DNA from: an uncultured Bacteriovoracaceae bacterium
Lineage (GTDB): Bacteria; Bdellovibrionota; UBA2394
Direction of reading: 5' to 3'
Assembly: GCA_964598565.1 (NCBI GenBank)
Contig: CAZRCG010000006.1
Span: 37,624-101,623 of the forward strand
Length of the DNA stretch: 64,000 nucleotides
This document shows positions 1 to 34,311 of this stretch, piece by piece; the stretch's first letter is position 1, and the number at the start of each line of letters is the position of its first letter. Under the pieces are notes generated by a model. That model made no database searches. It was not told the DNA's origin and saw only the letters and a list, made by a program, of their open reading frames with translations. The translations under genes were made by a program, and so were the position numbers.

Positions 1-13
1 CGGCGCATCTGCC

Positions 14-1354
14 ATGATCAAACTCGAACTTACGATATCTGACCTGCAACTAGCGTCCCAAGGATACAGTGGCAGTCAAGCTCGTACCGATGAGATTACG
101 ACGCGACGACTCTTCGAAGCGGGAGCGATGGTCAAGCAAAGAATCTTGGGTGCCAGCCAAGCTGAAGCCATCGATGAAACAATGAGAATGACCCGGCTTC
201 ACTGGCTGGGTGGCAAACCCAATCCTGTTGTCGTTGCCTTTCACGGCCCCACGGGCACTGGAAAGACTTCGACTGCTATAGAAATTGCAGCGGCCGTATT
301 TCCAGGGGAAGAAGATGCCATTGAAATCATTCCATTATCGGAATATTCAGAAGCGCACTTAGGGACACGGCTCACCGGGGGCTCAGCGACTTATATTGGC
401 TACGATGACGAACCGCTCTTGCCGATGGTCATTCGACGTCGTGGTGGAAAAGAATTTGTACTGGTTTTGGATGAAATCGAAAAGGCCCATCGGGATGTGT
501 TGAGAAAGGTCATGCAGTTCATCGATACAGGAAGAATTCAAGATCAAAAGAGCCAGATCCACATAGCAGAAAAAATGTTGGTTGTAATGACGAGCAACCT
601 TGCCGACAAGACAATCGCGGGCTTTTTGCATCACAATCAACAATTAGCCCGAGATCTAGAAAGTGTTTTGGGTAGACCTCCAACGGCGGCGGAAAAGGCT
701 GCAGTGAATAGCCTTGATTACGTGCAAAGAGCGGCAGTGGTAGAGGAAGTTCGCCGTCATTTTGAAGAGGCCGTTTTTGCCAGAATTCAAGCTAACTTTA
801 TACTTCAGCCAGTCGACGATATCAAAAAACTCATGCAACAGAAGTTTTCAGCCGCGCTGAAAGACTTTCCACGGCTTAGAGAGCACGGCATCTCCGAACT
901 GGTGTTAGATGAATCAATGGAGAAACTACTTGAAAAACGGGCTTATTCGGCCTTCCTGGGAGTTCGGGGGACAAATTCTTATATGGCGAGATATCTCCTT
1001 GCAGAGGCTACTGAACTTTTAGATCCGAGAGGCGGCTTTCGCTACGCTCCTGGTGACAAACTGTCTTATCGAGTACAAAAGATAGGAGATATAGAATCAG
1101 GAGACGATCAAGTCGTGTTTGAAATAGTGAGCGCAACACAAGAAATAAAATTCTCTAAAGTGCTCTTTAGTGTTGCTGATATGCCTTATGTAGATGACCG
1201 CTTAAATCCAAGATTGATAAAAGCTCGAGAAACTATGGCTAGCATGGCCGCTGCAACTTCAGCGCAACAACCTCGCGCTGAAGGGCAAGCACCTGGGCCT
1301 GATGCACCGACCAATCCGAACACTCGAAATGATCCCGAAACGTTCACACCATAA
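14..1354 (+). CDS. ClpA/ClpB-family AAA+ ATPase (Clp D2-type module); frame is open back to the window edge, so the gene may be 5'-partial
   Basis: Walker A GPTGTGKT, Walker B VLVLDEIEKAH, Clp-D2-like HRDVLRKVMQFIDTGRIQD and MTSNL segment; N-terminal TISDLQLASQGYSG resembles the linker preceding D2 in ClpB; no in-frame stop between position 2 and the first ATG. Confidence 0.7.
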   Translation: MIKLELTISDLQLASQGYSGSQARTDEITTRRLFEAGAMVKQRILGASQAEAIDETMRMTRLHWLGGKPNPVVVAFHGPTGTGKTSTAIEIAAAVFPGEEDAIEIIPLSEYSEAHLGTRLTGGSATYIGYDDEPLLPMVIRRRGGKEFVLVLDEIEKAHRDVLRKVMQFIDTGRIQDQKSQIHIAEKMLVVMTSNLADKTIAGFLHHNQQLARDLESVLGRPPTAAEKAAVNSLDYVQRAAVVEEVRRHFEEAVFARIQANFILQPVDDIKKLMQQKFSAALKDFPRLREHGISELVLDESMEKLLEKRAYSAFLGVRGTNSYMARYLLAEATELLDPRGGFRYAPGDKLSYRVQKIGDIESGDDQVVFEIVSATQEIKFSKVLFSVADMPYVDDRLNPRLIKARETMASMAAATSAQQPRAEGQAPGPDAPTNPNTRNDPETFTP

Positions 1355-1362
1355 GGGGGCCT

Positions 1363-1381
1363 CCTGCCATCGCCTGGCAGG
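1363..1381. terminator. Hairpin (7-bp stem cctgcca/tggcagg, 5-nt loop) between convergent Clp-like ATPase and topA; candidate bidirectional terminator
   Basis: Perfect inverted repeat read directly from sequence, located in the 38-bp gap between two convergent stop codons. Confidence 0.4.
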
Positions 1382-1392
1382 TTCGCGAAACC

Positions 1393-4221
1393 TTATCTAC
1401 GCGCCTCAATAAGTTCGATGGCGCGTTCGAGGGTCAGGGTTTCGATGGTTTCGCCCTTGGGAATGGAGGCATTGACTTTGCCACACTTCACATAGGGCCC
1501 GTAGGGCCCATCAAAAATTTCGAGGGGCTTTTTTTCGAGAGGATGATCGCCGAGGGTTTTGAGGGCCTGTCGTTTGGTGCGACCACGGCCGCCTCCGCGG
1601 GTACGCTCTTCTTGGAAAATATCGAGGGCTCGCTGGAGTGATATATTCAAAACATTGTCTTCTTTTTTTAGCGAACGATATTCGGGCTTTTCAAGATCGC
1701 CTCCACTGCGCACGACATAGGGCCCGAAGCGGCCCAGGCCGGCCTTGACGGTGTGGCCCTCGGCGTTCTGGCCGAGAGTGCGCGGTAAATAAAGATAACC
1801 TAAGGCCTCCTCAAGCGTCAGATTGGCGGGGTTCACGCCCTTAGGTACAACGGAGCGCTTCACTTTGAATGCGAGCTCGGCAGTATCGGCAGGTTCTTCT
1901 TGTTTCTTTGGTGTCTGCGATGCTTTTTTTGATTTCGTTTTAGATTTCTTTTTGGGAGCAGCCGCATCGGCGTCTTCGGCTTCGCCCAATTGCAAATAGG
2001 GACCATAGCGACCCGTCATGGCGTAGACCTTCTTGCCACTTTGAGGATCGATGCCCAAATGGGGCGGGCCGTCTTTCTTCTGCTGAATCAGTTGATCAAG
2101 TACCGCTACGTCCACATCGGCGGGAGCGAGGTCTTCAGGAAGAGAGGCTCGAACTTCGACTCCCTCGGAGCCACCGGAAGCGGCCTCTCGCTTCGAAAAG
2201 TAAGGTCCAAACTTACCGATACGAAATTGAATATCAGGAAATTTTTCGAGAGCGACCGAACGAGACTCGTCGGGATCAATATGTTTTGATTGAGCCGCAA
2301 TTTGTGCTCGAAGACCTCGCTTGGGCTCGGAATAAAAATCTCTCAAAAACTGAAGATAAGGTTTTTTTCCCTCAGCAATATCGTCCAAGGTATCTTCCAT
2401 CTGGGCCGTAAATCGCAAATCAATGAGCTCATTAAAGTGCTTCTTCAATAAACGAGTGACGGCAAACGCGGTGAAGGTCGGCACAAGAGCATTGCCCCCA
2501 CGACGAACATAACCACGATCGATGATCGTCGAAATAATGGCGGCATAAGTGGACGGTCGACCGATGCCCTCTTTTTCAAGAGTTTGAATAAGCGTGGCCT
2601 CAGTGAATCGTGCCGGAGGTTTGGTCTCATGCTCCGTAACCTCGAGCTCTGAATGGACCAGATTTTGGCCCACTTTCAGTGCAGGCAGCAAAACTTCACG
2701 CTCTTCGAGCGCGGCGTCGGTATCATCCCGGCCTTCCACATAACAGCGTAAAAATCCTGGAAACAAAATGCGCGTGCCGGTGGCCTGAAACTCTGCCTCG
2801 CCCGCTCGAATAGAAACCGTGGTGGTCATCTGCTTGGAGTCTGCCATTTGCGTGGCCATGGTTCGTTTCCAAATCAAATCATAGAGCTGCATCTCGAGAC
2901 CCGACAAACCACTCTCACTGGCTGTTTTAAAATCGGAGCCCGCCGGTCGTATGGCTTCATGTGCTTCTTGCGCGCCTCGAGACTTCGATTGATATTGCCT
3001 TGGGCCATCGGAAAGAAAGTCGGCACCATAAAGTTTTTGAATCGCTCGCCTCGCACCATCGAGCGCCTCTTGCGACAGCGTCACCGAGTCGGTACGCATA
3101 TAGGTGATAAACCCTTTTTCGTAAAGACCCTGCGCCACTCTCATCGCTTCGCGCCCCGAAAGACCCAGCTTACGATTCGCCTCTTGCTGGAGGGTCGATG
3201 TAATAAAAGGCGGGGCCGGTTTTCGAGCAAAGGGCTTTTCTTGAAGATCGGCCACAGTAAATGATTGCGCCTTAAGCGATTGCTTCAGTGTCTCAGCTTC
3301 GGGCTTTAATAAGAGACGAATATCTTTGCCTTCAAAAAGTTTTCCGGTTTGTTCGTCAAAATCTTTTCCAGTGGCAATTCGCTGCTCATTTATTTTAACT
3401 AATTTGGCTTCGAAACTGGCGGCGTCTTTCTGAGGGTCCGATGGAGTTTTAGCCTGTGAGAGCGTCGCTAACATTCCACAATAGGACGCCTTCTTAAATC
3501 GCATGCGCTCTTCTTCACGCTCAACAATAAGGCGGGTCGCCACCGACTGAACACGACCTGCACTAAGACCATACGCAATTTTGGTCCATAAGAGCGGCGA
3601 AAGCGAATACCCATAAAGACGATCGAGTATACGACGAGACTCTTGGGCCTCAACCAGTTTACGATCGACCTCTCTAAAATTATTCAGCGAGTCTTCGATC
3701 GCCTTGCGAGTAATTTCGTGAAAGACCATTCGTTTCACCGGAATGGTCGGCTTTAAAACCTCGACCAAATGATGAGAGATACTTTCTCCTTCACGGTCCT
3801 CGTCGGTAGCGAGAATCAACTCATCGGCATCGCGCAAACATTCTTTTAAATGGCGAATCACTTTGGCCTTCGCCGACGGAATTACATAGAGAGGTGTGAA
3901 ATCGGAATCGACATTAATGCCGAGACTCGCCCACTTTTCTTTTTTGTATTTTTCAGGAATTTCTTTGGCCGATGCGGGCAGATCGCGAATATGCCCGACA
4001 CAAGCTTCTACATGAAAGCCGGGGGGCAAAAATTTCTTGATGGTCTTAGCTTTCGTCGGTGATTCGACGATGACAAAGACTCGTTTGGCGCCGCGAGAAC
4101 TTGGTGTGGGGGCTGCCACGGATTTTTTTTGAGATGGAGAACTCTCGGTTTGAAGAGATTCCGCTTTTGGTTTTTTAGATTTTGTAGTTCGTTTTGTCAT
4201 TCTATTGTCATTGCTTCCCAA
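1393..4221 (-). CDS. topA: DNA topoisomerase I with C-terminal zinc-ribbon repeats and lysine-rich tail
   Basis: N-terminal TOPRIM VFVIVESPTKAKTIKKFL, central topo IA core, 942 aa, C-terminal KKKSKTKSKK basic tail. Confidence 0.95.
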   Translation of the reverse strand: MGSNDNRMTKRTTKSKKPKAESLQTESSPSQKKSVAAPTPSSRGAKRVFVIVESPTKAKTIKKFLPPGFHVEACVGHIRDLPASAKEIPEKYKKEKWASLGINVDSDFTPLYVIPSAKAKVIRHLKECLRDADELILATDEDREGESISHHLVEVLKPTIPVKRMVFHEITRKAIEDSLNNFREVDRKLVEAQESRRILDRLYGYSLSPLLWTKIAYGLSAGRVQSVATRLIVEREEERMRFKKASYCGMLATLSQAKTPSDPQKDAASFEAKLVKINEQRIATGKDFDEQTGKLFEGKDIRLLLKPEAETLKQSLKAQSFTVADLQEKPFARKPAPPFITSTLQQEANRKLGLSGREAMRVAQGLYEKGFITYMRTDSVTLSQEALDGARRAIQKLYGADFLSDGPRQYQSKSRGAQEAHEAIRPAGSDFKTASESGLSGLEMQLYDLIWKRTMATQMADSKQMTTTVSIRAGEAEFQATGTRILFPGFLRCYVEGRDDTDAALEEREVLLPALKVGQNLVHSELEVTEHETKPPARFTEATLIQTLEKEGIGRPSTYAAIISTIIDRGYVRRGGNALVPTFTAFAVTRLLKKHFNELIDLRFTAQMEDTLDDIAEGKKPYLQFLRDFYSEPKRGLRAQIAAQSKHIDPDESRSVALEKFPDIQFRIGKFGPYFSKREAASGGSEGVEVRASLPEDLAPADVDVAVLDQLIQQKKDGPPHLGIDPQSGKKVYAMTGRYGPYLQLGEAEDADAAAPKKKSKTKSKKASQTPKKQEEPADTAELAFKVKRSVVPKGVNPANLTLEEALGYLYLPRTLGQNAEGHTVKAGLGRFGPYVVRSGGDLEKPEYRSLKKEDNVLNISLQRALDIFQEERTRGGGRGRTKRQALKTLGDHPLEKKPLEIFDGPYGPYVKCGKVNASIPKGETIETLTLERAIELIEARR

Positions 4222-6763: not shown

Positions 6764-7780
6764 GTGGGGTCTGATCATACGCCAACCAATTCGGAGTCAA
6801 TGAAGAGCACAACTATTGACGGCAATGCCATTGAAAAGCAACTTGACGAAGACGACAAAGTTCCTGAACTAAAAAAAATTGATCGAGATTTTAGACGCAT
6901 GATTTTGCTGAGCCTCGCGAAGGCAAACGATGATAATCCGTATCTCATCCTCGACTTAAAGGTAGGCGTTTCGATTGAAACCGTTCGTTTGCGCTACCAC
7001 GATCTTTCTCGGTCGCTCCATCCTGATAAGCATTACCGTAAGGAACTTGGCCCCTACAAGCGCAAGCTCGAAAGTTTGTTCAGTCGCATTCAGAAGGCTT
7101 ACTCCAAACTGAAAGACCCCTACTCTAAGGAAGCTCTCGATAAACTTCTGAAGCTTAAAGATACACCGGCCAAAACCAGACCGATTCAAGGCGACGGCTC
7201 CACGTTCAAAGCCTCGTCCAAGCCGAAGCCACCCACGCAGTTATCGAAAGAGATGGAGCGATGGGGAAAAGCAGAAGCCGCTTACAAGAAGGGCCTTGAT
7301 TTTGAAAAGAACGGCTTTGCTTGGGACGCTTATATGCATTTTGTAGAGGCCGTCAAATTAGAACCTAAACGAGACACTTATAAGGCGGCTCACCAAAGAA
7401 TTCAAGCCGCCGCCTTTCGAGAGAGATCTCAAAGAGAAATTCAAGAATTGAAAAATGAGATTACTTCCTCAGGCGCTTCTCAGGCCATTTTGCGAAAATC
7501 GGAAGAACTCTTGCGACTCGAACCAGAGTCTCTGGATGCTAAAATTATTTTTAGTCGATGTATTGTCGAACGAAAAATGGAAGATCGCTACCACGAAGCC
7601 GAAGTCTTGTTGCAACGCTTAAAGTCGGCTCGTCCGCAAGATAGTGATCCGTGCTTATGGCTTGCACGGCTTTATGAAAATCGGGGCGAGAAAAAGGCGG
7701 CTATGAAAGAAGCTAAAGAGGCTCTGAATAGAAATCCAAAAAACTCGTCGGCTGAAAAACTCATTCAGCGATTGAAATAA
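6764..7780 (+). CDS. J-domain (DnaJ-like) co-chaperone with TPR-like C-terminal repeats
   Basis: J-domain with HPD tripeptide (LSRSLHPDKH); helical repeat-rich C-terminal half; not a canonical DnaJ (no Gly/Phe or zinc-finger region). Confidence 0.75.
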   Translation: MGSDHTPTNSESMKSTTIDGNAIEKQLDEDDKVPELKKIDRDFRRMILLSLAKANDDNPYLILDLKVGVSIETVRLRYHDLSRSLHPDKHYRKELGPYKRKLESLFSRIQKAYSKLKDPYSKEALDKLLKLKDTPAKTRPIQGDGSTFKASSKPKPPTQLSKEMERWGKAEAAYKKGLDFEKNGFAWDAYMHFVEAVKLEPKRDTYKAAHQRIQAAAFRERSQREIQELKNEITSSGASQAILRKSEELLRLEPESLDAKIIFSRCIVERKMEDRYHEAEVLLQRLKSARPQDSDPCLWLARLYENRGEKKAAMKEAKEALNRNPKNSSAEKLIQRLK

Positions 7781-8041
7781 ACTAGGGTAAAATGGGCCTA
7801 TCACCGATCTCCCGTTCGGTGCACCTCGACGCCAAAAACGAAACCTGCATCCTTGACTGCCTATCGCCTACCGCGCGAAAAGTTCTTAAGCCGTGGCGCA
7901 GTGCATTGATCTGTCGAAATGGCACCTCTTGCGGCGCTGGCTCTTGACGTCTTTGAGTCTCGAAGACTTTAAGTCGTAACGACTTTCACTCATGAGGACT
8001 TTTTGAGAGATTTCAACTGGCATCGGCGTTAAACTGAAAGC

Positions 8042-9646
8042 GTGTCAGAGATCGTTTTGGGTATTGATTTAGGAACGACCTATTCTTGTGTGGCGATAGC
8101 CGACAAAGATGGGCCCAGAGTTATTGAGCAACATGGAGGCTATCGCACCTTTCCTTCCGTCGTGGCCTTCACGGCCAATGGGTCTAAACTCATTGGTCAT
8201 ATTGCCAAGCGCCAATCGATTACGAATGCTGAAAATACGGTCTACTCCGCGAAGCGGCTAATCGGGCGAGGCTTCGAGGCTCCCGAGGTGCAAAAGGCAA
8301 TAAAATCGGTGCCCTATAAAATTGTTCAAGGCCCCAATAGAGATCCGAGAATATCTATTTTTGGCCGCAATCATCCAATCTCTGAAATTTCGGCGCTCAT
8401 TTTAAAGCAAATTAAAGAGATCGCCGAGGAGAGTCTTCACACCAAAATAGATAAGGCCGTGATTACCGTGCCAGCCTATTTTTCAGATGGTCAGAGGCAG
8501 GCAACCAAAGACGCAGGTTTCATTGCCGGCCTCGAGGTGCTGCGTATTATCAATGAACCTACGGCGGCGGCTCTTGCCTTCGGATACAAGCGTCGTATGG
8601 ACAAAAAGATTGTGGTTTACGATTTGGGTGGGGGTACGTTTGATGTTTCAATACTCGATATTTCTCGCGATACCTTCGAAGTATTGGCGACCGCAGGAAA
8701 TACCTTTCTGGGTGGAGAAGACTTTGATCAACGACTTATCGATTTTATTTCGAAATCGTTTGAAGCAGACCATGGCATTTCACTGAAAGATGATCGAATG
8801 GCCCTTCAGCGTCTGAAAGATGCTGCTGAAACCGCTAAGAGCCAGCTGTCGACTCTGCTTGAGACCGAAGTGAACTTACCCTTTCTCATTACCATCAACG
8901 GTGAGGCGAAACATTTGAAGATGACGCTTCATCGACTTGATCTTGAGCGAATCACTCAAGACTTGGTCGATGAAACTATCCGCATTTGTCGGGACGCCCT
9001 CGATATGGCAGCTCTCAAAGTGGGAGAAATCGATGATGTTTTGTTGGTGGGGGGTATGACTCGCATGCCGTTGGTTCAGCAAAAGGTGCGGGAATTCTTT
9101 GAACGCGTTCCATCGAAAAATATTCATCCGGATGAGGCTGTAGCTCTTGGGGCCGCCATTATGGGCGCCACTCTTCTAGAAGAAGAAATGCCTGTGACTC
9201 TTCTCGATGTGACTCCCTTCAGTTTGGGTATTCGAACAGCCGGTGGTTATACCAACTTTCTGATACCCAAAAATTCGACCATTCCGACCGAAGCCAGTCA
9301 TGTCTTTACGACGGTGAGCGAGGGGCAGACATCGGTGAAAATTCAGGTCCTGCAGGGTGAAAGCAAAGTCGCCATCGACAATATTTTACTGGGAGAATTC
9401 ACGCTCACTGATATTCCTCCCCTAAAAGCGGGAGAGCCTGAAATTAATGTGATTTTTAGCATCGATTCAAATGGTATTGTTCATGCGTCAGCGCAAGATA
9501 TGAAAACCATGAAAGAGCAATCGATTATGGTCACCTCAAAGTCGAGCTTAACCGAAGAAGAGCGAGATGAAATTGCCGAACGCTTTAACAGCGATAACGA
9601 TATGGGCGTCACTGAGAAAGTGGGACGACCTGAAGGCTCACAATGA
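8042..9646 (+). CDS. Hsp70-family chaperone, short-lid HscC-like type
   Basis: IDLGTTYS, DLGGGTFDVSIL, VGGMTRMPLVQQKV motifs; 534 aa, i.e. nucleotide-binding domain plus beta substrate-binding domain but truncated helical lid; GTG start. Confidence 0.85.
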   Translation: MSEIVLGIDLGTTYSCVAIADKDGPRVIEQHGGYRTFPSVVAFTANGSKLIGHIAKRQSITNAENTVYSAKRLIGRGFEAPEVQKAIKSVPYKIVQGPNRDPRISIFGRNHPISEISALILKQIKEIAEESLHTKIDKAVITVPAYFSDGQRQATKDAGFIAGLEVLRIINEPTAAALAFGYKRRMDKKIVVYDLGGGTFDVSILDISRDTFEVLATAGNTFLGGEDFDQRLIDFISKSFEADHGISLKDDRMALQRLKDAAETAKSQLSTLLETEVNLPFLITINGEAKHLKMTLHRLDLERITQDLVDETIRICRDALDMAALKVGEIDDVLLVGGMTRMPLVQQKVREFFERVPSKNIHPDEAVALGAAIMGATLLEEEMPVTLLDVTPFSLGIRTAGGYTNFLIPKNSTIPTEASHVFTTVSEGQTSVKIQVLQGESKVAIDNILLGEFTLTDIPPLKAGEPEINVIFSIDSNGIVHASAQDMKTMKEQSIMVTSKSSLTEEERDEIAERFNSDNDMGVTEKVGRPEGSQ

Positions 9647-10729: not shown

Positions 10730-12385
10730 TTGACGAAGCCGAAGTTCGTAAATTTGAACGACTGGCCGCCGATGTTCCTTAAGCTGAGATGCTTTATCTT
10801 TCGAATGATCCCCGGGCTATGCGCATCAACGATGTGGGCTGCCTCCATTGGAAAGATGGAATGTCACGAATATTTGAGCGCGATTTATAGCCTGCAACTT
10901 GACACAATCAAACGTTTGTTTGAAAATCATCGGGTGACGCTGACGCTGGTCTCGCCTTTATTCGTTTTCTTTCTCGTAACCGCAGACGACAAATTACCTC
11001 CCCCTCCGAGCTTGTCGGAGAAAATTCTTTTGGAACGGCTTCAAGAGACAAGCCCGGCTATACAATCGATTCGAGCCCAGAGAGCCGATAGAGAGCTTGA
11101 GCGTTCTCTGCTGCGAGAGAGGTTTGAAAGCACGCTCAGCCCCTCGATATCTTATTTGAACACGAAAGAGCGAGCCATTTCAGCCCTTGAGCCTGTAATA
11201 AGCCCGCAGCTTCAAAGCGCACTGCGGATAAGCCGACGACTACCTTTCGGCGTTGAAATCATAGGTGAAGCTCAGGCGAGGCAGATCAGCGTAGAAGCTT
11301 CCCAGGTTTACGATGCCACTCAGGTGCGAGGCCTGGTGAGAGCCCAGTTTGATTTGTGGAATAATCTATTTGGTATTGCCGATCGAGCTCTGTTGTCAGC
11401 CCTTGTCGCCAGCGAGAAAGGTGCTGAACTTCGCGAAACGCTTCAACGAAAATCGTTGGAGTCTGATATTCGCATTCTCTATTGGCGATGGCTTGCGACC
11501 AATGAACGCCTTCGAGTATCTAAGGAGCTTCTGAGGGGCTCGGATGTGCAGCTGACCGATGCTCGACAGCGTCGGCGTCAATCGGCGGCTGACGAAGGCG
11601 ATGTCGCGCTACTCGAAGCGCAGTGGCTGCAACGCCAGCGCGATCTTGATTTTTTAACCCAGCAGAAAGTGGGGCTCTTAACGACGATTGAAGAGCTGTT
11701 GGGCCCCCTGCCGGTGGAGTGGAAGGCGGCGGACCCCCTCGATCTTGGTTCATTACTGCGAGAAAGAGTGGCCGACGCTCAGTCGTGCGCCGCCAATCCA
11801 TCGAATGAATGGCTGCGATCCGATTGGGACGATGTCGTAGCCCTCTTGCAAACAGAGCGAGATGGCCGAACGCGTTCGGCGCAGTATTCGCATCTACCAA
11901 CCGTTCAGGGCTTCGCGCAATTGCAAACGAGTGGAGCACGGTCGTCGCTTGGTGGAGCCTTCGATGATTGGCGTGACGATACCAAGCTGGGCTATGAGGT
12001 TGGTGTTCAGTTGAGTTTACCTCTGGAGGGCGATCGTTTCACAAGTCGACGAAAAATGATGGAATCGAACCACCTTCGCTTGGATGCTGAAAGTCAAAGA
12101 CTTCAATATCAGCTGAACTCTAAGCGAAGCCAATGGTCTCAAACACTCCCTCTTCTCTATCGCCAACTAGAGGCTCAGCAGAAGAGCTCGCTGGCGCTTG
12201 AAAAAGCCGTGCGATCAAAAAAGCGAAAGTTTGACCAAGCAAGAGCGTCTATTAACGACCTCATCCATGATCAGAACGCGTACTACCAAAGTCGACTTCA
12301 AGAGATCTCGCTGCAAGAAGAGATTCTGGTGACCGTACTCGACTTTAAAAAGACTCTCACTAAACTTTCGTGCTTGGAACTATGA
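10730..12385 (+). CDS. TolC-family outer membrane efflux protein (true start likely downstream of the annotated start)
   Basis: Coiled-coil and beta-barrel repeat pattern typical of outer membrane factor proteins; immediately upstream of an RND pump. Confidence 0.7.
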   Translation: MTKPKFVNLNDWPPMFLKLRCFIFRMIPGLCASTMWAASIGKMECHEYLSAIYSLQLDTIKRLFENHRVTLTLVSPLFVFFLVTADDKLPPPPSLSEKILLERLQETSPAIQSIRAQRADRELERSLLRERFESTLSPSISYLNTKERAISALEPVISPQLQSALRISRRLPFGVEIIGEAQARQISVEASQVYDATQVRGLVRAQFDLWNNLFGIADRALLSALVASEKGAELRETLQRKSLESDIRILYWRWLATNERLRVSKELLRGSDVQLTDARQRRRQSAADEGDVALLEAQWLQRQRDLDFLTQQKVGLLTTIEELLGPLPVEWKAADPLDLGSLLRERVADAQSCAANPSNEWLRSDWDDVVALLQTERDGRTRSAQYSHLPTVQGFAQLQTSGARSSLGGAFDDWRDDTKLGYEVGVQLSLPLEGDRFTSRRKMMESNHLRLDAESQRLQYQLNSKRSQWSQTLPLLYRQLEAQQKSSLALEKAVRSKKRKFDQARASINDLIHDQNAYYQSRLQEISLQEEILVTVLDFKKTLTKLSCLEL

Positions 12386-12397
12386 AAGGACGTCTCC

Positions 12398-15300
12398 ATG
12401 GAACGCCTTGCCCAGTTTTTTCTCGATAATAAAAAATTTACGTATGTCGTGACTCTTATTTTTGCCGTTTACGGAGGTCTCAATCTTCTTCAAATTCATA
12501 CCGAAGAATTTCCTAATGTGAATGTTGGCAACGCAATTGTCACCACCAACTATCCAGGGGCCTCAGCCACCGAAGTAGAGACGAAGATTACAAAGCCAAT
12601 CGAAGATGAAATTCGAAGTGTACGCGGCATTAAAATGGTTCGATCCCTGTCAAAGCCTGGCTTCAGCCAAATTTTCATCGAAGTAGATATCGATCGTTAT
12701 TCCGTTCAAGAAGTCATGGGCGATCTTCAGCGAGCCATCGATCGAACGAGAGACCTGCCCGGCGATTTAGATGAACTGCCGGCGTTTGTTGAAATAAAAA
12801 CTGAAGAATGGCCTGTGATCGAGTTAGCGATTGTGGGGTCCAATGATAATCGACTGCGAAATCGGGTGGCCGATGAACTCAAAGAGGTCATTGAGGAGCA
12901 TCCCGGCATTGTAGAGGTTCTTCCACTCGGCTATGCGCCGAGACAATTTACCATTCAGTTAGATCCCAAAAAACTACAGGCTTTCAATATTGGTATCGAT
13001 GAGGTTGTCGGCGCGATTCGATCGAGAAACGTGACAATTCCTGGCGGAGAGATTAAATCGGCAAGGGATCAGCGCCTTTTAAGAATTGAGGGTAAAGTTC
13101 ATAGTATTTCTGACCTTGAAACGCTTGTCGTGCGATCGACGTTTTCAGGCCGGCCTGTTCTTCTGAAGGATATCGCTCAGCTCTCGGACAACGAGCCCGA
13201 GCAAGACATTCTTTACCGATATGGCCAAGAGCCTGCTACTATGCTGGCGGCGAAGAAGCGAGGCGGCGCGGATATTCGCTCTCTTTCGAGCGACGTCGAA
13301 ACCATCATTGGTAGTTTTAGAGAAAAATATAAAGACGATCTTAAGTTTAATATTTACTTTAACTCCGGCGAACAGACCCATCAACGCATCACAATTTTAG
13401 GATCTAACGCGGTGGTGGGACTTGTCTTGGTATTCTTATTTCTCATGCTGTTTTTGCCAGGACGTCATGGATTTGTGGCGGGGCTATCGCTACCACTCGC
13501 GATGCTAGCGACCGTGGGCTTTATGAATACCGCAGGCCTCACGCTAAACTCTATGAGCATTCTGGCACTCATTATTGCGCTAGGCATGCTCGTCGATAAT
13601 GCGGTTGTCGTCGCAGAGAATACTATCTTTCTACAAAAGAAAGGCTTGCCCACGCGCGAAGCGCTTTTAAAAACGGTTCAGCAACTTTCCTTACCCATTA
13701 CCATGACGACGCTCACCACTATTTTTGCGTTCGTACCGATGCTGGTGACAACGGGGGGTATGGGTCAATTTATCCGAAGTCTTCCCATCATCATTAGTTT
13801 TGCTCTTGCCTTCAGTTTGTTTGAAGCATTTTTTCTGCTACCAACACGATTGGGATGGCTCAAGCTTAAGCTGCCCTCAGACTCCTCATTAAAATCATCC
13901 TCAGAATCTCGAAGTGAACATCATGATTGGTTCACTCGTTGGATAGAGCCCCCCTTTGCGCGCCTGATGACCCTTGTCGTTAAGCATCGCATAATAACGT
14001 TTGGCGTCTATACGGCGATTCTTCTGGGGTCGATGCTCTTGCTTGTGAAAGGCAATGATTTGATTTTATTTCCGGCTGATCAAGCAAAACGCTACTTAAT
14101 GCGTGTTGAAATGCCCGTAGGCACTCCTGTAACAAAAACGTCTGAAGCGCTGGCGCGACTGGCCCAGAAAGTCCAAGACAAGTTTGGAGCGGGCATTGAA
14201 CATATTAAAGTCATTGCTGGAGAGTCTGCGTTTGACCCCAATGATCCTAAAGCAAAGAAAGGGGCTCGCTTTGGTCTGCTCTATATTTTTATTTCAGACG
14301 AGCTAAAAGATACAGTTCCCTACAAGAAAACTTTGGCCGATCTACGAGCCATCACGATACCCGGTATAGAAAAAATTGGCGCTGAAGTGGAAATCATGGG
14401 ACCTCCTATTGGGGATCCCGTAAATATTAGTTTTCGCTCGAACGACGCAGCGGCATTACAAGCGGTTGCGCAGTCTATCGTCGACAAGCTTCGGGAGACG
14501 CCCGGTATTTTTGATGCGCAGGTCAACGAGATCATTGGCGACGAAGAAGTTTTCGTCAGCGTCGACTATCAAAAGGCAGCTCGCTTGGGATTAAATCTGG
14601 CCCATATTGGAGAGACCGTGCGAACGGCGATTGCAGGGACGAAAGTATCGGATATCACCTTGAACAACAAAAAGGTGGATCTCGTCGTTCAGTTTAACCC
14701 CGAAGGACGTGAGTCTTTAGAGAGCTTGAATCTCATTAAGATTCGAGATCCTCAGGGAAATTTGATTCCTCTATCGACCGTGGCCACCTTTAAAAAGGTA
14801 GTGGGCGAACCCCAGATTCAACGCTTTGACTACAAACGATCTAAAACCGTGACCGCCAATGTGAACCTTGATGAACTCACCGCAGTAGAAGCTAATGAAA
14901 TAGCCTTGGCCGCCTATGCTGCCATTCAAGCGGACTATCCAGAAGTAAGCCTCGAGCTAGGGGGTGAGGGAGAAAAAACTCAAGAGTCTATGCAGTCGCT
15001 CTTTCGGGCTCTAATGCTTTCTCTGCTCGCCATTTTTGGCCTGCTCGTTCTTCAATTTAATTCGTATCTCAGACCTCTGATCATTTTGAGCACCATTCCT
15101 CTCGGCATTGTCGGCGTATCCGTCGCGTTTTTCTTTCACGATCGCCCCATCAGCTTTCTCGCGCTTATTGGCATTTTGGGTCTCGGTGGAATCATCGTAA
15201 ATACGGGTATCATTCTCATTAGCTTCATTGATGAGCTACGCAAAGAGAGCGATCGAAGCCTACTAGAAATTGTTCTTGAAGCCGCCACGCGACGCCTTCG

Positions 15301-15556
15301 TGCCGTGGTGGTGACGTCGGTCACAACCGTCGCCGGCCTCATTCCCACAGCGTATGGCATGGGAGGTGCGGATGAATTTATTATTCCCATGTGTATGTCG
15401 CTGGCATGGGGCTTAGTGAGCGGTACGTTACTCTCTTTAATTTGGGTACCCTGCGCCTACATGATCACCGAAGATATCGCCCGCTGGTGTGGTCAAAAAA
15501 TGGGGCGATCGAGCAGAGAACAGTCCCTCAAAGTGCTTCAGTCCGTGAAGGCATAG
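12398..15556 (+). CDS. RND efflux transporter permease, AcrB/CzcA family
   Basis: 1052 aa, 12-TM RND architecture, conserved N-terminus FFLDNKKFTYVVTLIFAVYGG and large periplasmic loops. Confidence 0.9.
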   Translation: MERLAQFFLDNKKFTYVVTLIFAVYGGLNLLQIHTEEFPNVNVGNAIVTTNYPGASATEVETKITKPIEDEIRSVRGIKMVRSLSKPGFSQIFIEVDIDRYSVQEVMGDLQRAIDRTRDLPGDLDELPAFVEIKTEEWPVIELAIVGSNDNRLRNRVADELKEVIEEHPGIVEVLPLGYAPRQFTIQLDPKKLQAFNIGIDEVVGAIRSRNVTIPGGEIKSARDQRLLRIEGKVHSISDLETLVVRSTFSGRPVLLKDIAQLSDNEPEQDILYRYGQEPATMLAAKKRGGADIRSLSSDVETIIGSFREKYKDDLKFNIYFNSGEQTHQRITILGSNAVVGLVLVFLFLMLFLPGRHGFVAGLSLPLAMLATVGFMNTAGLTLNSMSILALIIALGMLVDNAVVVAENTIFLQKKGLPTREALLKTVQQLSLPITMTTLTTIFAFVPMLVTTGGMGQFIRSLPIIISFALAFSLFEAFFLLPTRLGWLKLKLPSDSSLKSSSESRSEHHDWFTRWIEPPFARLMTLVVKHRIITFGVYTAILLGSMLLLVKGNDLILFPADQAKRYLMRVEMPVGTPVTKTSEALARLAQKVQDKFGAGIEHIKVIAGESAFDPNDPKAKKGARFGLLYIFISDELKDTVPYKKTLADLRAITIPGIEKIGAEVEIMGPPIGDPVNISFRSNDAAALQAVAQSIVDKLRETPGIFDAQVNEIIGDEEVFVSVDYQKAARLGLNLAHIGETVRTAIAGTKVSDITLNNKKVDLVVQFNPEGRESLESLNLIKIRDPQGNLIPLSTVATFKKVVGEPQIQRFDYKRSKTVTANVNLDELTAVEANEIALAAYAAIQADYPEVSLELGGEGEKTQESMQSLFRALMLSLLAIFGLLVLQFNSYLRPLIILSTIPLGIVGVSVAFFFHDRPISFLALIGILGLGGIIVNTGIILISFIDELRKESDRSLLEIVLEAATRRLRAVVVTSVTTVAGLIPTAYGMGGADEFIIPMCMSLAWGLVSGTLLSLIWVPCAYMITEDIARWCGQKMGRSSREQSLKVLQSVKA

Positions 15557-23567: not shown

Positions 23568-25130
23568 TTACGGCTGGATCACCTCTATAAGGCGCGCCGC
23601 ACGTTCAGGACTAAAGCCGTGAAAAACGGGTGAGTCGGCAGGGCCTACGTTCGAGGAGTAGCCGATGATATCGTGAGAGGCGGGCAGTGGCTTGATACCC
23701 GAAAAAATCCATTGAGATTTTTGAGGCAATTCCTGGGGTGATTCTTGAGACGATTCTTGAGGAGCTTTTGAGCCCCCCGCAGGCTTAGGCCATGGGCTCG
23801 AAACCACCGTCTCTTTAAACTCAACCAAAAGACCTCGGTCGAATTGTTGGCTATTATTCTTAACAATGATTCCGTAGGCACGACGGCCTGACCCATCATC
23901 TTTCGAAGGCTGCGAGATCATCTCGGGTCGACTCACAATTTCAACTCCCGGATACCCCGCATTTAGCAAATGCCTATTTAGGGACTCCCATGACGCCCCC
24001 ATGGCTTTCCCGACTTGCGCATGAAACGGAGTTGTCATGACGTGAATCATTTCTGTCTGAAGGGCCTCTGAAATAATTTCACGTTGCTGAAGGTCGTTTG
24101 ATTCGGCGGCAAGAGCCCAAGCGTTCAGTTCAGACTCTAAAGACTTAGAACCTAACTGATGTATCAGAGAACCTCCGGCGAGCAGGCCGGCTGCAAGACT
24201 CAGGCCTTTAAGACGAGACCCACAAGAACGAAAATCTGAATAACTTCTCCACTCGGAGCCACTCATCTCTCGAGATGCTCGCAGCACCTGTCGACGTTCT
24301 TGAAAACTCCGAACCGTTTGTCTCAAATGGTTTCGATAGGTCTTTTCACTTGAAAGTGTCCATGAGCCCGCTTCGATGGCACTCTGCCTTTTTGCACCTA
24401 GTGCTTCGACGGCATTGATGGTCTGTTCCCACGGCTTCAAGATAAGTGATCCCACACGACCATAGTCTTTTTCAAAGGCTTTCTTTATTGAGACCAACAT
24501 CTGATTTTGTCGGCGCGCCGCATGAAGAGTCTGTTGAAATGCGGGCGACTGATTGCGAATCAACGATCTATCAGGCGCCGATAATTTTTTAGAGGTCATC
24601 CATTCTTGTATCTTCGATTCTTGAAGGCCCCCACTCGACAGGCTAAGGAGCCTGGATGATCTTAAACCTGCGTTTTGAAAACTGGGGGCCAAATTAGTTT
24701 TGGACGATAAGAACGTTTTCAGTTTCTGAACAGCGAACGGAACTGCCGCCAATACAAGAAGACTCTCGGTAAGTGTCACGACATCCAGCGAATCCCCATA
24801 GCGCTGTAAGACCGACGAATTATTCCACTCTTGTATTTTGGCCTGATAAGCTTGCGGCGATCGTTCGTAGACTTGAGCCGTCACCTCCGACGAAAGCTCT
24901 AAAGGACTCTGTTGGAGAGCGCGTTCGATGAGGCGTATCTCCGTGGGCGACCAAGAATCATCGGCTACCGAGGCTTGCAGTAAAATGGCCATGAAGACAG
25001 CGAAACCTACGGTAAGGAGACGCAAAAATGGCTGCGATAATTTGCACGCCGATAAGCAGGTTTCTAACGACGTACACAAGCTAAAGATCATACGCTCTAT
25101 ATAGAGAGCAAAGACTGTGCCAAATATCAA
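23568..25130 (-). CDS. Hypothetical protein, low-complexity Ser/Gln-rich, probably secreted or membrane-anchored
   Basis: Long ORF (520 aa) with N-terminal hydrophobic segment; no recognisable catalytic motifs. Confidence 0.45.
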   Translation of the reverse strand: MIFGTVFALYIERMIFSLCTSLETCLSACKLSQPFLRLLTVGFAVFMAILLQASVADDSWSPTEIRLIERALQQSPLELSSEVTAQVYERSPQAYQAKIQEWNNSSVLQRYGDSLDVVTLTESLLVLAAVPFAVQKLKTFLSSKTNLAPSFQNAGLRSSRLLSLSSGGLQESKIQEWMTSKKLSAPDRSLIRNQSPAFQQTLHAARRQNQMLVSIKKAFEKDYGRVGSLILKPWEQTINAVEALGAKRQSAIEAGSWTLSSEKTYRNHLRQTVRSFQERRQVLRASREMSGSEWRSYSDFRSCGSRLKGLSLAAGLLAGGSLIHQLGSKSLESELNAWALAAESNDLQQREIISEALQTEMIHVMTTPFHAQVGKAMGASWESLNRHLLNAGYPGVEIVSRPEMISQPSKDDGSGRRAYGIIVKNNSQQFDRGLLVEFKETVVSSPWPKPAGGSKAPQESSQESPQELPQKSQWIFSGIKPLPASHDIIGYSSNVGPADSPVFHGFSPERAARLIEVIQP

Positions 25131-25264: not shown

Positions 25265-25335
25265 AAGGCGGCACCCGGATTTGAACCGGGGATGAGGATT
25301 TTGCAGACCCTTGCCTTACCACTTGGCTATGCCGC
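25265..25335 (-). tRNA. tRNA-Cys (anticodon GCA)
   Basis: Manual fold of the minus-strand sequence GGCGGCAUAGCCAAGUGGUAAGGCAAGGGUCUGCAAAAUCCUCAUCCCCGGUUCAAAUCCGGGUGCCGCCU: 7-bp acceptor stem, anticodon loop CUGCAAA, T-loop UUCAAAU, U discriminator typical of tRNA-Cys; no encoded CCA. Confidence 0.9.
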
Positions 25336-25426
25336 CATCATCTTGCGCGAGGACCAAGCCGTCTCGATTGAGTCGCCATGGTTCGTCGCCATCAAACCCC
25401 TAAAACTACGCACTACTCTCTTCGTC

Positions 25427-30711: not shown

Positions 30712-31626
30712 ATGCAAAAAATAGGGCTCTTCTTTTCATCGCTGCTTCAAACCATGCAGAGGCATCAGTCGGCGCTGTGGCGCTGGGCCACCTTGGTGAC
30801 CGTTACTTATTTTCTTGCCAGAGCCATCAATACGGTGGTGGCCTACTACTATTTTCCGATCGAAGCTCCGCCGCGAAAAATTAGTACTGAACCCCTCACC
30901 GCCCCCAAAGAGACTAATACCCAGGTGATCACCTCTCGAAACCTCTTTGATTCTGAAGCTCCGGGCCGTCTTCGAAACGCCTTTACAAATGCCACCACAG
31001 CGATTGTACCGAGTCAGCTGCCTCTGGAACTTATTGGCACGGTCGTTTTTCAAAACTCTCGTTTCTCGGTCGCTCTGATTCGCGAGCGTAGCCAAAAAGG
31101 AGCCCAGTATTATGCTTTGGGTGAGCAAGTGCTGAGCGCTCGAATCCACAAAATTGAGCGGCATCGCGTTATATTAGAAAACGGCGCACGATTAGAAAGT
31201 CTTGAACTAAAAGCGGCCGAAAGCAAACTTTCTGCGTCTAAACCTCTATCGAGCCAACCCACGATAGGCATTTCGCCTGCCACAGATTTTGAAGAACTCA
31301 GCCCCAATCGTTATGTGATTCCTCAGAGCACCGTCGACGATGTGCTTGCTAATTTCAATTTAGTGCTCACGCAGGCACGAATGGTTCCAAATATTACACC
31401 TGAAGGCAAGACCGAGGGCTTCAAAGTCTTTCAAATTCGTGATGGGAGCATTTACCAAAAACTCCAAATGAAGGATAACGATATCATTCGTCGCGTCAAT
31501 GGCGTCGATCTCGATACATTTGAGAAAGCGACGGGTCTTTTTACCGCATTGCGCAATGAAAAATCTATTTCCATCGATTTAGTCCGCAATGGACAAAGGA
31601 TAAACTATACTTATGAAATTCGTTAA
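30712..31626 (+). CDS. Type II secretion system protein C-like (N-terminal TM, C-terminal PDZ)
   Basis: Single N-terminal TM segment, C-terminal PDZ-like region (DNDIIRRVNGVDL); overlaps the start of the secretin gene. Confidence 0.55.
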   Translation: MQKIGLFFSSLLQTMQRHQSALWRWATLVTVTYFLARAINTVVAYYYFPIEAPPRKISTEPLTAPKETNTQVITSRNLFDSEAPGRLRNAFTNATTAIVPSQLPLELIGTVVFQNSRFSVALIRERSQKGAQYYALGEQVLSARIHKIERHRVILENGARLESLELKAAESKLSASKPLSSQPTIGISPATDFEELSPNRYVIPQSTVDDVLANFNLVLTQARMVPNITPEGKTEGFKVFQIRDGSIYQKLQMKDNDIIRRVNGVDLDTFEKATGLFTALRNEKSISIDLVRNGQRINYTYEIR

Positions 31627-34267: not shown

Positions 34268-34311
34268 AGGAGAAGCCTTCGAGAAGAACTCTTCGAGGAG
34301 AATCGACCATT

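What the first reader, a model, noticed from the sequence alone, without database searches (positions are those of the whole stretch)
1..1354. Divergent Clp-type AAA+ ATPase module running off the 5' window edge
The ORF carries a complete Clp D2-type ATPase module (Walker A GPTGTGKT, Walker B VLVLDEIEKAH, HRDVLRKVMQFIDTGRIQD), but the rest of the protein is much more divergent than housekeeping ClpB/ClpA/ClpX. The reading frame is open from position 2, and the first residues resemble the linker that precedes D2 in two-ring Clp proteins, so the gene probably starts upstream of the window. A specialised Clp-like unfoldase convergent with topA is not part of the usual topA neighbourhood.
Basis: partly seen in the sequence, partly recalled or inferred. 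Interest (0 to 1): 0.45.

Follow-up and report, generated by a model that had tools for sequence, protein, structure and literature searches.

The report
Orphan ClpB-like ATPase, dead first ring
The first 1.35 kb of the window is the back half of an 884-residue, one-of-a-kind relative of the protein-unfolding chaperone ClpB: its first motor ring has lost its catalytic residues and a hydrophobic membrane or signal segment replaces the usual N-terminal domain. It is real and unusual, but it was seen in only one genome and its role is unknown.

Summary
Window 2-1351 (+) encodes a Clp D2-type AAA+ module (Pfam AAA_2, E 2.6e-21) and the gene does start upstream of the window. An identical public contig supplies the missing 434 codons, giving an 884-aa protein (P0121).

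P0121 is collinear with ClpB: D1, a long M-domain coiled coil, D2 and the D2-small domain. It differs in four ways:
- It has no Clp_N domain. Residues 43-62 form a single hydrophobic helix instead.
- D1 keeps only its P-loop. Walker B DE is QN, the arginine fingers RR are NH, and the pore-loop Tyr is absent.
- D2 keeps every catalytic and pore-loop motif.
- Where ClpA/ClpC carry the ClpP-docking [ILV]GF, P0121 has LGR. A ~70-aa C-terminal extension has no match anywhere.

An exhaustive HMMER search of 1.84 billion representative proteins found only P0121 itself. The next hits (E 3e-38) match the ATPase core alone. Two relatives (GatB ~69% identical, Bdellovibrionota-like MAGs) have topA, then a small secreted protein, then a giant orphan protein, with no Clp gene. 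The gene and its divergent 524-aa neighbour are therefore a lineage-specific insertion.

Most likely it is a ClpP-independent unfoldase driven by D2 and tethered to the membrane. Its substrate is unknown. It is a new variant of a known kind, of moderate interest.

The parts
1..1354 (+). 3' part (codons 435-884 plus stop) of the 884-codon Clp/Hsp100-like gene P0121. The 5' 1,301 nt lie upstream of the window (L001 14201-15501, minus strand of that locus).
2..229 (+). End of the D1-small domain and the linker helices leading into D2 (full-length residues 435-510).
   Evidence: Alignment to ClpB; AF2 helices 446-457, 461-481 and 485-503
230..709 (+). D2 large ATPase domain (Pfam AAA_2).
   Evidence: (E 2.6e-21)
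245..268 (+). D2 Walker A, GPTGTGKT (residues 516-523).
389..403 (+). D2 pore loop TYIGY. It keeps the substrate-gripping Tyr of the ClpB GYVG loop.
458..490 (+). D2 Walker B, VLVLDEIEKAH (D591/E592 intact).
587..598 (+). D2 sensor-1 motif MTSN.
605..775 (+). Helical insertion after sensor-1 (residues 636-692). It contains VLGRPP (nt 665-682) in the alignment column where ClpA/ClpC-type proteins carry the ClpP-docking [ILV]GF. ClpB-type proteins have a deletion here.
776..790 (+). D2 arginine-finger motif FARIQ (R695, an invariant column in the alignment).
791..1135 (+). Divergent D2-small domain, including the sensor-2 motif GVR (nt 956-970, GAR in ClpB) and the terminal beta-hairpin. It falls below the Pfam ClpB_D2-small threshold but is covered by the NCBIfam ClpB alignment.
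1136..1351 (+). C-terminal extension with no match anywhere: one extra strand, a helix (residues 837-855) and a disordered Ala/Pro/Gln-rich tail (residues 856-884).
1363..1381 (.). GC-rich hairpin (CCTGCCA-TCGCC-TGGCAGG) in the 38-nt gap between the convergent Clp-like gene and topA. It could serve as a terminator for both genes, though it has no T tract.
   Evidence: -19.6 kcal/mol, z -2.7

Best explanation
P0121 is a lineage-specific, highly diverged paralogue of the two-ring ClpB/Hsp104-type AAA+ unfoldases. I propose that it forms a hexamer in which only the second ring (D2) hydrolyses ATP and threads polypeptide through its Tyr pore loop. The first ring (D1) still binds nucleotide through its intact P-loop GPVGSGKS. 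D1 cannot hydrolyse ATP because Walker B is QN and the arginine fingers are NH, and it cannot grip substrate because the pore-loop Tyr is absent. It therefore serves as a static assembly or regulatory ring that carries a ClpB-length M-domain coiled coil. The Clp_N substrate/adaptor domain is replaced by one hydrophobic helix (residues 43-62). I infer that this helix tethers the machine to the cytoplasmic face of the inner membrane. The protein lacks a hydrophobic ClpP-docking tripeptide, so it works as a stand-alone unfoldase, extractor or disaggregase rather than as the ATPase of a protease. What is shown: the domain architecture, the state of each motif, the orphan status and the insertion into a conserved locus. 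What is inferred: hexamer formation, D2-only motor activity, membrane tethering with the ATPase facing the cytoplasm, and action on membrane-proximal or export-bound substrates, possibly the adjacent secreted orphan proteins.
For: Architecture. P0121 aligns collinearly to E. coli ClpB 177-725. Its residues 77-343 match a ClpB/C D1 profile that excludes it (hhalign probability 95.9%, E 5.6e-9). The AF2 model built with the alignment has pLDDT 78.8 and shows the D1 and D2 Rossmann-type strand/helix patterns plus three long M-domain helices at 331-349, 353-404 and 410-433. Foldseek matches full-length ClpC/ClpB chains over 740-846 columns at E 1e-29 to 1e-27.

D1 degeneracy. Three independent alignments agree: ClpB D278/E279 align with Q197/N198, R331/R332 with N250/H251, and the KYRG pore loop with GKPLSPSD. 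The Walker A motif is retained.

D2 is intact: Walker A, Walker B DE, the TYIGY pore loop, sensor-1 N, the Arg finger R695 and the sensor-2 GVR are all present.

No ClpP tip. P0121 has LGR in the [ILV]GF column. The nearby IAGF lies inside a confidently predicted helix.

N-terminus. There is no Clp_N hit. Kyte-Doolittle hydropathy is 2.17 over residues 44-62, the only such peak in the protein. The in-frame coding score is positive from codon 31 onward, and a Shine-Dalgarno sequence AAGGGAG sits 5 nt before M1.

Selection. The ORF is intact at 884 codons, its coding score is positive throughout, and its GC content equals that of its neighbours.
Against: The positive-inside rule argues against a cytoplasmic ATPase. 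The N flank has net charge +5 and the C flank -1, which would place the ATPase outside the cytoplasm. The protein is a singleton, so there is no conservation or covariation evidence that the degenerate D1 or the hydrophobic helix is maintained by selection. In two relatives the neighbouring giant-protein locus exists without this gene, so a functional link to it is weak. The AF2 model was built from a ClpB/C alignment and leans toward that fold. No expression or biochemical data exist. The LGR-bearing insertion resembles the ClpA/C loop region more than ClpB does, so a ClpC-like ancestry or residual ClpP coupling is not excluded.
Confidence: 0.55

Rival explanations
1. P0121 is an exported ClpB-like unfoldase. 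Residues 1-68 would be a long Sec signal peptide or signal anchor (positively charged n-region, hydrophobic core 44-57, V-L-A|A cleavage-like site at 66-69), and the AAA+ rings would work outside the producer's cytoplasm. In a predatory Bdellovibrionota-like bacterium that could mean inside the prey, where ATP is available. The precedent would be Plasmodium HSP101 in the PTEX translocon.
For: Charge distribution is +5 on the N flank and -1 on the C flank. All three divergently transcribed neighbours are also exported or anchored: p524 has a TM segment at 40-58, and p278 and the giant protein have signal peptides, the giant's ending ...SLSA|ATP, similar to ...SVLA|ATP here. GatB places the organism near Bacteriovoracaceae / 'Deltaproteobacteria' MAGs. 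HSP101 is among the PDB sequence hits and is described as a ClpB-like exported chaperone in PMC8896661.
Against: To my knowledge no bacterial AAA+ ATPase is known to work in the periplasm or outside the cell. The 43-residue n-region and 11-residue c-region are atypical for Sec signal peptides. No translocon-like partner was identified. The predatory lifestyle is inferred only from GatB similarity of about 64-72%.
Confidence: 0.1
2. P0121 is a decaying or neutrally drifting paralogue: a duplicated or acquired clp gene that is losing function, with D1 already dead. It would have no specialised role.
For: It is a singleton with no ortholog. D1 has lost catalytic motifs. It sits in a fast-evolving, insertion-prone locus.
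Against: The reading frame is intact over 884 codons. Every D2 catalytic and pore residue is retained despite about 70% sequence divergence. The gene has a good Shine-Dalgarno sequence and positive coding statistics throughout. The loss in D1 is selective: the P-loop and fold are kept, which is typical of regulatory pseudo-ATPase rings.
Confidence: 0.15
3. P0121 is a ClpP-coupled unfoldase of the ClpA/ClpC type that delivers substrates to ClpP.
For: After sensor-1 it has an insertion in the same place as the ClpA/C helix-loop-helix, with L-G at the first two tripeptide positions. The best Foldseek hits include ClpC-ClpP complexes.
Against: The third tripeptide residue is Arg rather than Phe or Leu. 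The M-domain has ClpB length, about 105 aa in three helices. No clpP gene lies within about 20 kb upstream or in the 64-kb window (not every ORF was scanned).
Confidence: 0.07
4. P0121 is the ATPase component of an anti-phage defence system or mobile element, similar to DolB or PDC-M37B.
For: PADLOC hits to DolB (E 2e-12) and PDC-M37B (E 3e-12). The gene is a lineage-specific insertion.
Against: The PADLOC hits cover only the generic AAA_2 core. The neighbours p524 and p278 match no PADLOC, Pfam or NCBIfam model. There are no flanking repeats and no integrase specific to the insertion, GC content is normal, and there is no relative in viral contigs.
Confidence: 0.04
5. P0121 is an ordinary housekeeping ClpB/ClpA, or the T6SS ATPase ClpV.
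For: The best NCBIfam matches are ClpB (107 bits) and TssH (100.5 bits).
Against: Those scores are about tenfold below the equivalog cut-offs of 1232 and 885. There is no Clp_N or ClpV N-domain, D1 is degenerate, and no T6SS genes are nearby.
Confidence: 0.02

Closest known systems
ClpB / Hsp104 disaggregases (class I Clp/Hsp100)
   Same: The domain order is the same: D1, then an M-domain coiled coil inserted in D1-small, then D2 and D2-small. The M-domain has ClpB-like length (about 105 aa, three helices). D2 has canonical Walker A/B, pore-loop Tyr, sensor-1, Arg finger and sensor-2. There is no hydrophobic ClpP-docking tripeptide.
   Different: There is no Clp_N domain; a hydrophobic helix takes its place. 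D1 Walker B is QN, the D1 Arg fingers are NH and the D1 pore-loop Tyr is absent. A 17-25-residue helical insertion follows D2 sensor-1 and a ~70-aa extension follows D2-small. Overall identity is about 20%. The NCBIfam ClpB score is 107 against a cut-off of 1232.
ClpC / ClpA / ClpE (ClpP-partner class I unfoldases)
   Same: Two-ring architecture. An insertion after D2 sensor-1 aligns with the ClpP-loop region and carries L-G.
   Different: The tripeptide is LGR rather than [ILV]G[FL]. The M-domain is about twice as long as in ClpC and is absent in ClpA. There is no Clp_N, UVR or zinc-finger domain, and no clpP gene nearby.
Plasmodium HSP101 (PTEX) and other ClpB-type ATPases with N-terminal targeting or hydrophobic segments (human CLPB/Skd3, torsins)
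   Same: A ClpB-type D2 motor preceded by an N-terminal hydrophobic or signal segment. HSP101 is a sequence hit at E 7.6e-17. The literature describes HSP101 as a ClpB-like exported chaperone (PMC8896661) and torsins as ER-resident AAA+ proteins (PMC5425593). That Skd3 and torsins carry N-terminal hydrophobic segments is from my own knowledge.
   Different: These are eukaryotic proteins. HSP101 keeps a Clp_N-like domain and two canonical rings (own knowledge). Skd3 and torsins have a single ring. Nothing shows that P0121 is exported.
Uncharacterised metagenomic proteins with tandem AAA_2 modules, some with N-terminal TM segments (for example P0128, P0129, P0132, P0161, P0254)
   Same: They give the best full-sequence scores to the D2 module (E 3e-38 to 1e-27). 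Several have predicted N-terminal TM helices.
   Different: Their high scores are sums over 2-3 repeated D2-type modules. They have no ClpB-type D1 or M-domain. Only the ATPase core aligns, at 27-34% identity.

Membership tests
Clp/Hsp100 class I (two-ring AAA+ unfoldases) | Two tandem AAA+ modules collinear with ClpB/ClpA/ClpC | tested here: met
   phmmer alignment to E. coli ClpB 177-725; hhalign of the N half against a D1 profile, probability 95.9%; Foldseek hits to full-length ClpC/ClpB at E 1e-29
Clp/Hsp100 class I (two-ring AAA+ unfoldases) | D2 is a Pfam AAA_2 domain above the gathering score, with Walker A/B, pore-loop Tyr, sensor-1, Arg finger and sensor-2 | tested here: met
   AAA_2 scores 76.8-80.7 bits against a cut-off of 27; motif columns
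Clp/Hsp100 class I (two-ring AAA+ unfoldases) | Catalytically competent D1 (Walker B DE, Arg fingers, pore-loop Tyr) | tested here: not met
   DE is QN, RR is NH and KYRG is GKPL in three independent alignments. Only Walker A GPVGSGKS is kept.
Clp/Hsp100 class I (two-ring AAA+ unfoldases) | N-terminal Clp_N (Clp R) domain | tested here: not met
   No PF02861 hit at E <= 0.1 and none in the precomputed list. Residues 1-90 hold a single hydrophobic helix.
ClpB/Hsp104 subfamily | Long M-domain coiled coil (motifs 1 and 2) inserted in D1-small | tested here: met
   AF2 helices 331-349, 353-404 and 410-433, collinear with ClpB residues 400-520. Sequence conservation of the DnaK-binding motif 2 could not be assessed.
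ClpB/Hsp104 subfamily | Reaches the NCBIfam equivalog score for ClpB (TIGR03346, NF008118) | tested here: not met
   107 bits against a cut-off of 1232, and 86 bits against 1417 (window fragment only)
ClpB/Hsp104 subfamily | Cooperation with DnaK/Hsp70 through the M-domain | not testable with these tools
   A truncated Hsp70 and its DnaJ-TPR partner lie 5-8 kb away (window 6764-9646), but the pair is also conserved in relatives that lack this gene.
ClpA/ClpC/ClpE/ClpX (ClpP partners) | Surface loop carrying the [ILV]-G-[FL] ClpP-docking tripeptide | tested here: not met
   The alignment column holds LGR (VLGRPP, residues 656-661). IAGF (639-642) lies inside predicted helix 636-657.
ClpV/TssH (T6SS) | Reaches the TIGR03345 score, has the ClpV N-domain and has T6SS neighbours | tested here: not met
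   100.5 bits against a cut-off of 885. Neither the called genes within about 20 kb on the upstream side nor the window ORFs that were scanned carry T6SS families.
PADLOC DolB / PDC-M37B defence ATPases | Full-length match plus the cognate partner genes | tested here: not met
   Only the ATPase core matches (E about 2e-12). The neighbours have no PADLOC hit.
Inner-membrane-anchored or Sec-exported protein | Functional TM helix or cleavable signal peptide | tested here: inconclusive
   Kyte-Doolittle hydropathy is 2.17 over residues 44-62. Flank charges are +5 and -1, and a VLA|A cleavage-like site is present. No dedicated predictor or experiment was available, and the topology is unresolved.

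The most novel reading that the evidence does not exclude
A bacterial ClpB-derived unfoldase is exported through its N-terminal signal or anchor and works outside the producer's cytoplasm, for instance in the prey or bdelloplast of a predatory Bdellovibrionota-like bacterium. There a single active ring would unfold or translocate the adjacent secreted giant orphan proteins. This would be a prokaryotic counterpart of Plasmodium HSP101/PTEX.
Probability: 0.07. Interest if true: 0.85.

Novelty: new variant of a known kind. Interest (0 to 1): 0.4.

Why it matters
Class I Clp/Hsp100 machines are usually described as having two working rings and a Clp_N domain. P0121 appears to be a natural version in which D1 is reduced to a nucleotide-binding, non-hydrolysing, non-gripping ring. 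Its Walker B QN resembles the E-to-Q 'trap' mutations used in the laboratory, and a hydrophobic anchor replaces the N-domain. If the protein is active, three things would follow. It would be a natural experiment on how much of the two-ring design a D2 motor needs. It would add a membrane-tethered member to the bacterial Hsp100 repertoire, which I did not find described in three literature searches. It would also mark a fast-evolving locus of giant secreted orphan proteins in a poorly sampled predatory-type lineage. Its value is limited because it is a singleton: no comparative evidence exists and no partner or substrate can be named.

Tried and rejected
**Ortholog searches** (all negative beyond the generic AAA_2 core)
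- Word-indexed search with the C half gave a best hit of 30% identity. This search also failed to return P0121 itself, although P0121 is in that collection.
- Word-indexed search with the N half gave nothing.
- The exhaustive phmmer search of 1.84e9 representatives found P0121 at E 1.8e-291 and then nothing above 3e-38.
- Peptide-pattern scans of GTDB genomes, JGI metagenomes and IMG/VR found nothing relevant.
- The top 'relatives' P0128-P0138 only score well because they carry 2-3 tandem AAA_2 modules.

**Structure**
- Single-sequence AF2 failed (pLDDT 41). The run with alignment A1 worked.
- The afdb50 fold library was unavailable.

**Gene start and ClpP motif**
- M83, just before the ClpB-homologous region, was considered as the start. 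It was rejected because it has no Shine-Dalgarno sequence and the in-frame coding score is already positive from codon 31. M50, preceded by GGAGG 8 nt upstream, cannot be excluded, but it still includes the hydrophobic segment.
- 'IAGF' was considered as a ClpP-docking motif. It was rejected because it lies in a confident helix and off the IGF alignment column.

**Mobile element or horizontal transfer**
- No GC deviation and no flanking repeats.

**Neighbours and context**
- p524, p278 and the giant protein have no Pfam, NCBIfam, PADLOC or PDB-sequence match.
- No second Clp gene lies in the window. The genome's bona fide clpB, clpA and clpX could not be retrieved.
I worked around this by registering the proteins through.
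- Three literature searches found no bacterial precedent.
Full report
**1. The observation**

Window 2-1351 (+) is an open frame ending at the TAA at 1352-1354.

Pfam AAA_2 matches fragment residues 77-236 at E 2.6e-21, 76.8 bits against a gathering score of 27. NCBIfam aligns fragment 35-334 to positions 554-824 of the 853-position ClpB model, which is D2 plus D2-small. The score is only 107 bits against an equivalog cut-off of 1232. ClpV, ClpG, ClpK and ClpA follow closely. The D2-type module is therefore real, and it is far more diverged than a housekeeping Clp protein.

**2. Recovering the whole gene**

An exact look-up of the adjacent topA product (window 1396-4200, minus strand) found a Logan contig, SRR15237806_11416. 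The same proteins are also on a 167,954-bp NCBI contig. The Logan contig is identical to the window over all 14,200 overlapping bases, with no mismatches.

On that contig the gene runs 1,301 nt further upstream and encodes 884 aa, named P0121 here. The start M1 is preceded by AAGGGAG five nucleotides upstream. A codon-usage log-odds score trained on 14 confident genes of the window is positive in frame from codon 31 onward. An alternative start at M83, which would delete the hydrophobic segment, has no Shine-Dalgarno sequence and lies inside sequence that already scores as coding. M50 remains possible but keeps the hydrophobic segment.

**3. Anatomy**

P0121 aligns to E. coli ClpB as one collinear stretch, residues 90-639 to ClpB 177-725, with the D2-small region following. 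A ClpB/C D1 profile built without P0121 matches residues 77-343 by hhalign at probability 95.9% and E 5.6e-9.

AlphaFold2 with a 60-sequence ClpB/C alignment gives a mean pLDDT of 78.8. The single-sequence run was useless at pLDDT 41. Foldseek against the PDB returns full-length ClpC and ClpB chains over 740-846 columns at E 1e-29 to 1e-27. Because the model was built from a ClpB/C alignment, the fold match is supportive rather than independent evidence.

The domains are:
- **Residues 1-42:** a basic N-terminal tail.
- **Residues 43-62:** a hydrophobic helix. Kyte-Doolittle hydropathy is 2.17, the only such peak in the protein.
- **Residues ~95-330:** D1.
- **Residues 331-433:** a three-helix coiled coil of ClpB length, not ClpC length.
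- **Residues ~505-700:** D2.
- **Residues ~700-812:** D2-small.
- **Residues 813-884:** an extension made of one strand, one helix and a disordered Ala/Pro/Gln-rich tail. It matches nothing.

There is no Clp_N hit.

**4. State of the motifs**

Three independent alignments agree on D1: phmmer, MAFFT and hhalign.
- Walker A is intact (GPVGSGKS).
- Walker B I-D-E is L-Q-N (Q197/N198).
- The arginine fingers R331/R332 of ClpB are N250/H251.
- The KYRG pore loop is replaced by GKPLSPSD.
- The D1 sensor-2 region DRxLPDKAID is degenerate.

D2 retains Walker A, Walker B D591/E592, the pore loop TYIGY, sensor-1 TSN, the Arg finger R695 (an invariant alignment column) and sensor-2 GVR.

After sensor-1, P0121 has a helical insertion. 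In the column where ClpA/ClpC-type sequences carry [ILV]GF it has LGR. ClpB-type sequences have a deletion there. The nearby IAGF sits inside a confidently predicted helix. The defining ClpP-docking tripeptide is therefore not present.

**5. Rarity**

Every search for a relative was negative beyond the generic ATPase core:
- A word-indexed search of 5.8e9 proteins with the C half gave nothing above about 30-45% identity, and that only over the ATPase core.
- The N half gave nothing at E <= 0.01.
- An exhaustive phmmer search of 1.84e9 cluster representatives returned P0121 itself at E 1.8e-291, then dropped to 3e-38.
- The next hits are proteins with two or three tandem AAA_2 modules whose scores simply add up. 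Only the ATPase core aligns, at 27-34% identity.
- Peptide-pattern scans of GTDB species genomes, JGI metagenomes and IMG/VR found only ordinary ClpB-like genes or nothing.

**6. Organism and locus history**

The window is an ordinary Gram-negative chromosome segment. It encodes topA, trmFO, gatCAB, ilvE, a Ser/Thr kinase, an RND efflux pair, T2SS GspD/GspE and RelA/SpoT.

Its GatB is 61-72% identical to a cluster of about 45 metagenomic proteins. The named ones are 'Deltaproteobacteria bacterium', 'Bacteriovoracaceae bacterium' and 'Bradymonadales bacterium' MAGs. The organism is therefore probably a poorly sampled Bdellovibrionota-like lineage. That placement is an inference.

Gene order from topA to gatB and beyond is conserved in relatives. 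In two of them, GCA_017302715.1 and GCA_964622975.1, the region downstream of topA reads, on the same strand: topA, then a small signal-peptide protein (311 or 339 aa), then a giant orphan protein (2907 or 3351 aa). Neither has any Clp-like gene there.

In the source genome the order is: topA, then P0121 on the opposite strand (convergent with topA), then a 210-bp divergent intergenic region, then p524, p278 and a giant protein of 3457 aa. The giants are only faintly similar to one another (E 1e-4 to 1e-5 in the same region). p524 and P0121 have no tblastn match in the relatives' loci.

P0121 plus p524 is thus a lineage-specific insertion into a positionally conserved, fast-evolving locus. It shows no GC anomaly and no flanking repeats.

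p524 has a ~40-residue N-terminal tail followed by one TM helix, the same layout as P0121. p278 and the giant protein have signal peptides. None of the three matches Pfam, NCBIfam, PADLOC or PDB sequences.

**7. Interpretation**

The best-supported reading is a ClpB-derived hexameric unfoldase in which D2 is the only motor. D1 would be a nucleotide-binding but non-hydrolysing ring with no pore loop, carrying a ClpB-type M-domain. The machine would not dock ClpP. A hydrophobic N-terminal helix replaces the substrate/adaptor-binding N-domain and most plausibly tethers the protein to the inner membrane.

The main uncertainty is topology. The positive-inside rule, with flank charges of +5 and -1, favours an exported C-terminal bulk. 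The need for ATP argues for a cytoplasmic one. This leaves a low-probability but interesting rival: an exported unfoldase comparable to Plasmodium HSP101 in PTEX (PMC8896661).

Other rivals are weaker or already refuted:
- **Decaying paralogue.** This is weakened by the fully intact D2 and the intact 884-codon frame.
- **ClpP partner.** The tripeptide is LGR, not [ILV]G[FL].
- **Defence ATPase.** Only the ATPase core matches, and the neighbours have no defence hits.
- **Housekeeping ClpB or ClpV.** This is refuted by the upstream sequence.

Three literature searches found no bacterial Hsp100 with this combination of features. Absence from those searches does not prove novelty.

**8. Verdict**

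The gene is a new variant of a known kind: Clp/Hsp100 class I, ClpB-like, with a degenerate D1 and an N-terminal hydrophobic anchor. Interest is moderate at 0.4. The architecture is unusual, but the gene is a singleton with no conserved partner and no testable substrate yet.

Noticed in passing
Upstream of the window: L006 7978-9552, 10001-10837 and 11058 to beyond 20837 (+). Relatives: L008 1-5506 and L011 1-6994.: The locus 'small signal-peptide protein followed by a giant (2900-3460 aa) secreted orphan protein' sits downstream of topA in three related genomes. Its position is conserved, but the sequences are almost unrecognisably diverged (E 1e-4 to 1e-5). None matches any Pfam or NCBIfam model.
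   Followed up: partly
window 6764-7780 (+) and 8042-9646 (+): A DnaJ-TPR protein is followed by a truncated DnaK-like Hsp70 of 534 aa that aligns to DnaK model positions 3-509 of 625, so the C-terminal lid is missing. The pair is conserved in synteny in all four relatives examined. A second DnaJ-TPR gene lies at 56875-58413 (-).
   Followed up: partly
window 10730-15556 (+): An RND efflux pair (OEP outer-membrane factor and a 1052-aa AcrB-type pump) lies between rluD and the efp/gatC block. Three relatives (P0279, P0282 and P0283 genomes) have only a ~195-226-aa gene at that position, and a fourth has feoAB, so this is another lineage-specific insertion.
   Followed up: partly
window 31613-36201 (+): T2SS secretin GspD (884 aa, by coincidence the same length as P0121) and a GspE-type ATPase with an MshEN domain.
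   Followed up: no
window 23568-25130 (-) and 38578-40476 (-): Two large ORFs (519 and 631 aa) have no Pfam or NCBIfam match.
   Followed up: no
window 25266-25336 (-): A single tRNA gene is the only Rfam family reaching its gathering score in the whole window.
   Followed up: no
window 1363-1381: A GC-rich 7-bp hairpin without a T tract lies in the 38-nt gap between the convergent Clp-like gene and topA (-19.6 kcal/mol, z -2.7).
   Followed up: partly
Database proteins P0167 and P0172: Other ~850-aa ClpB/C-like proteins in public data also have degenerate D1 Walker B motifs (IEN, LDP) and degenerate D1 Arg-finger positions (YRRLMS, VERNAV in place of LERRFQ), yet keep an IGF loop. Natural D1-dead class I Clp proteins may be a recurrent, undescribed theme. 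They are not specifically related to P0121.
   Followed up: no
Database proteins P0128, P0129, P0131, P0135, P0161, P0254: Metagenomic proteins with two or three tandem D2-type AAA_2 modules. Some have N-terminal TM helices and one (P0136) has a C-terminal trypsin-like domain. As far as these tools show, they are uncharacterised.
   Followed up: partly
Tool behaviour: the search for homologous proteins did not return P0121 when queried with its own C-terminal 450 residues. P0121 is nevertheless in that collection, and the representative search does find it. Negative results and alone should therefore be read with caution.
   Followed up: partly
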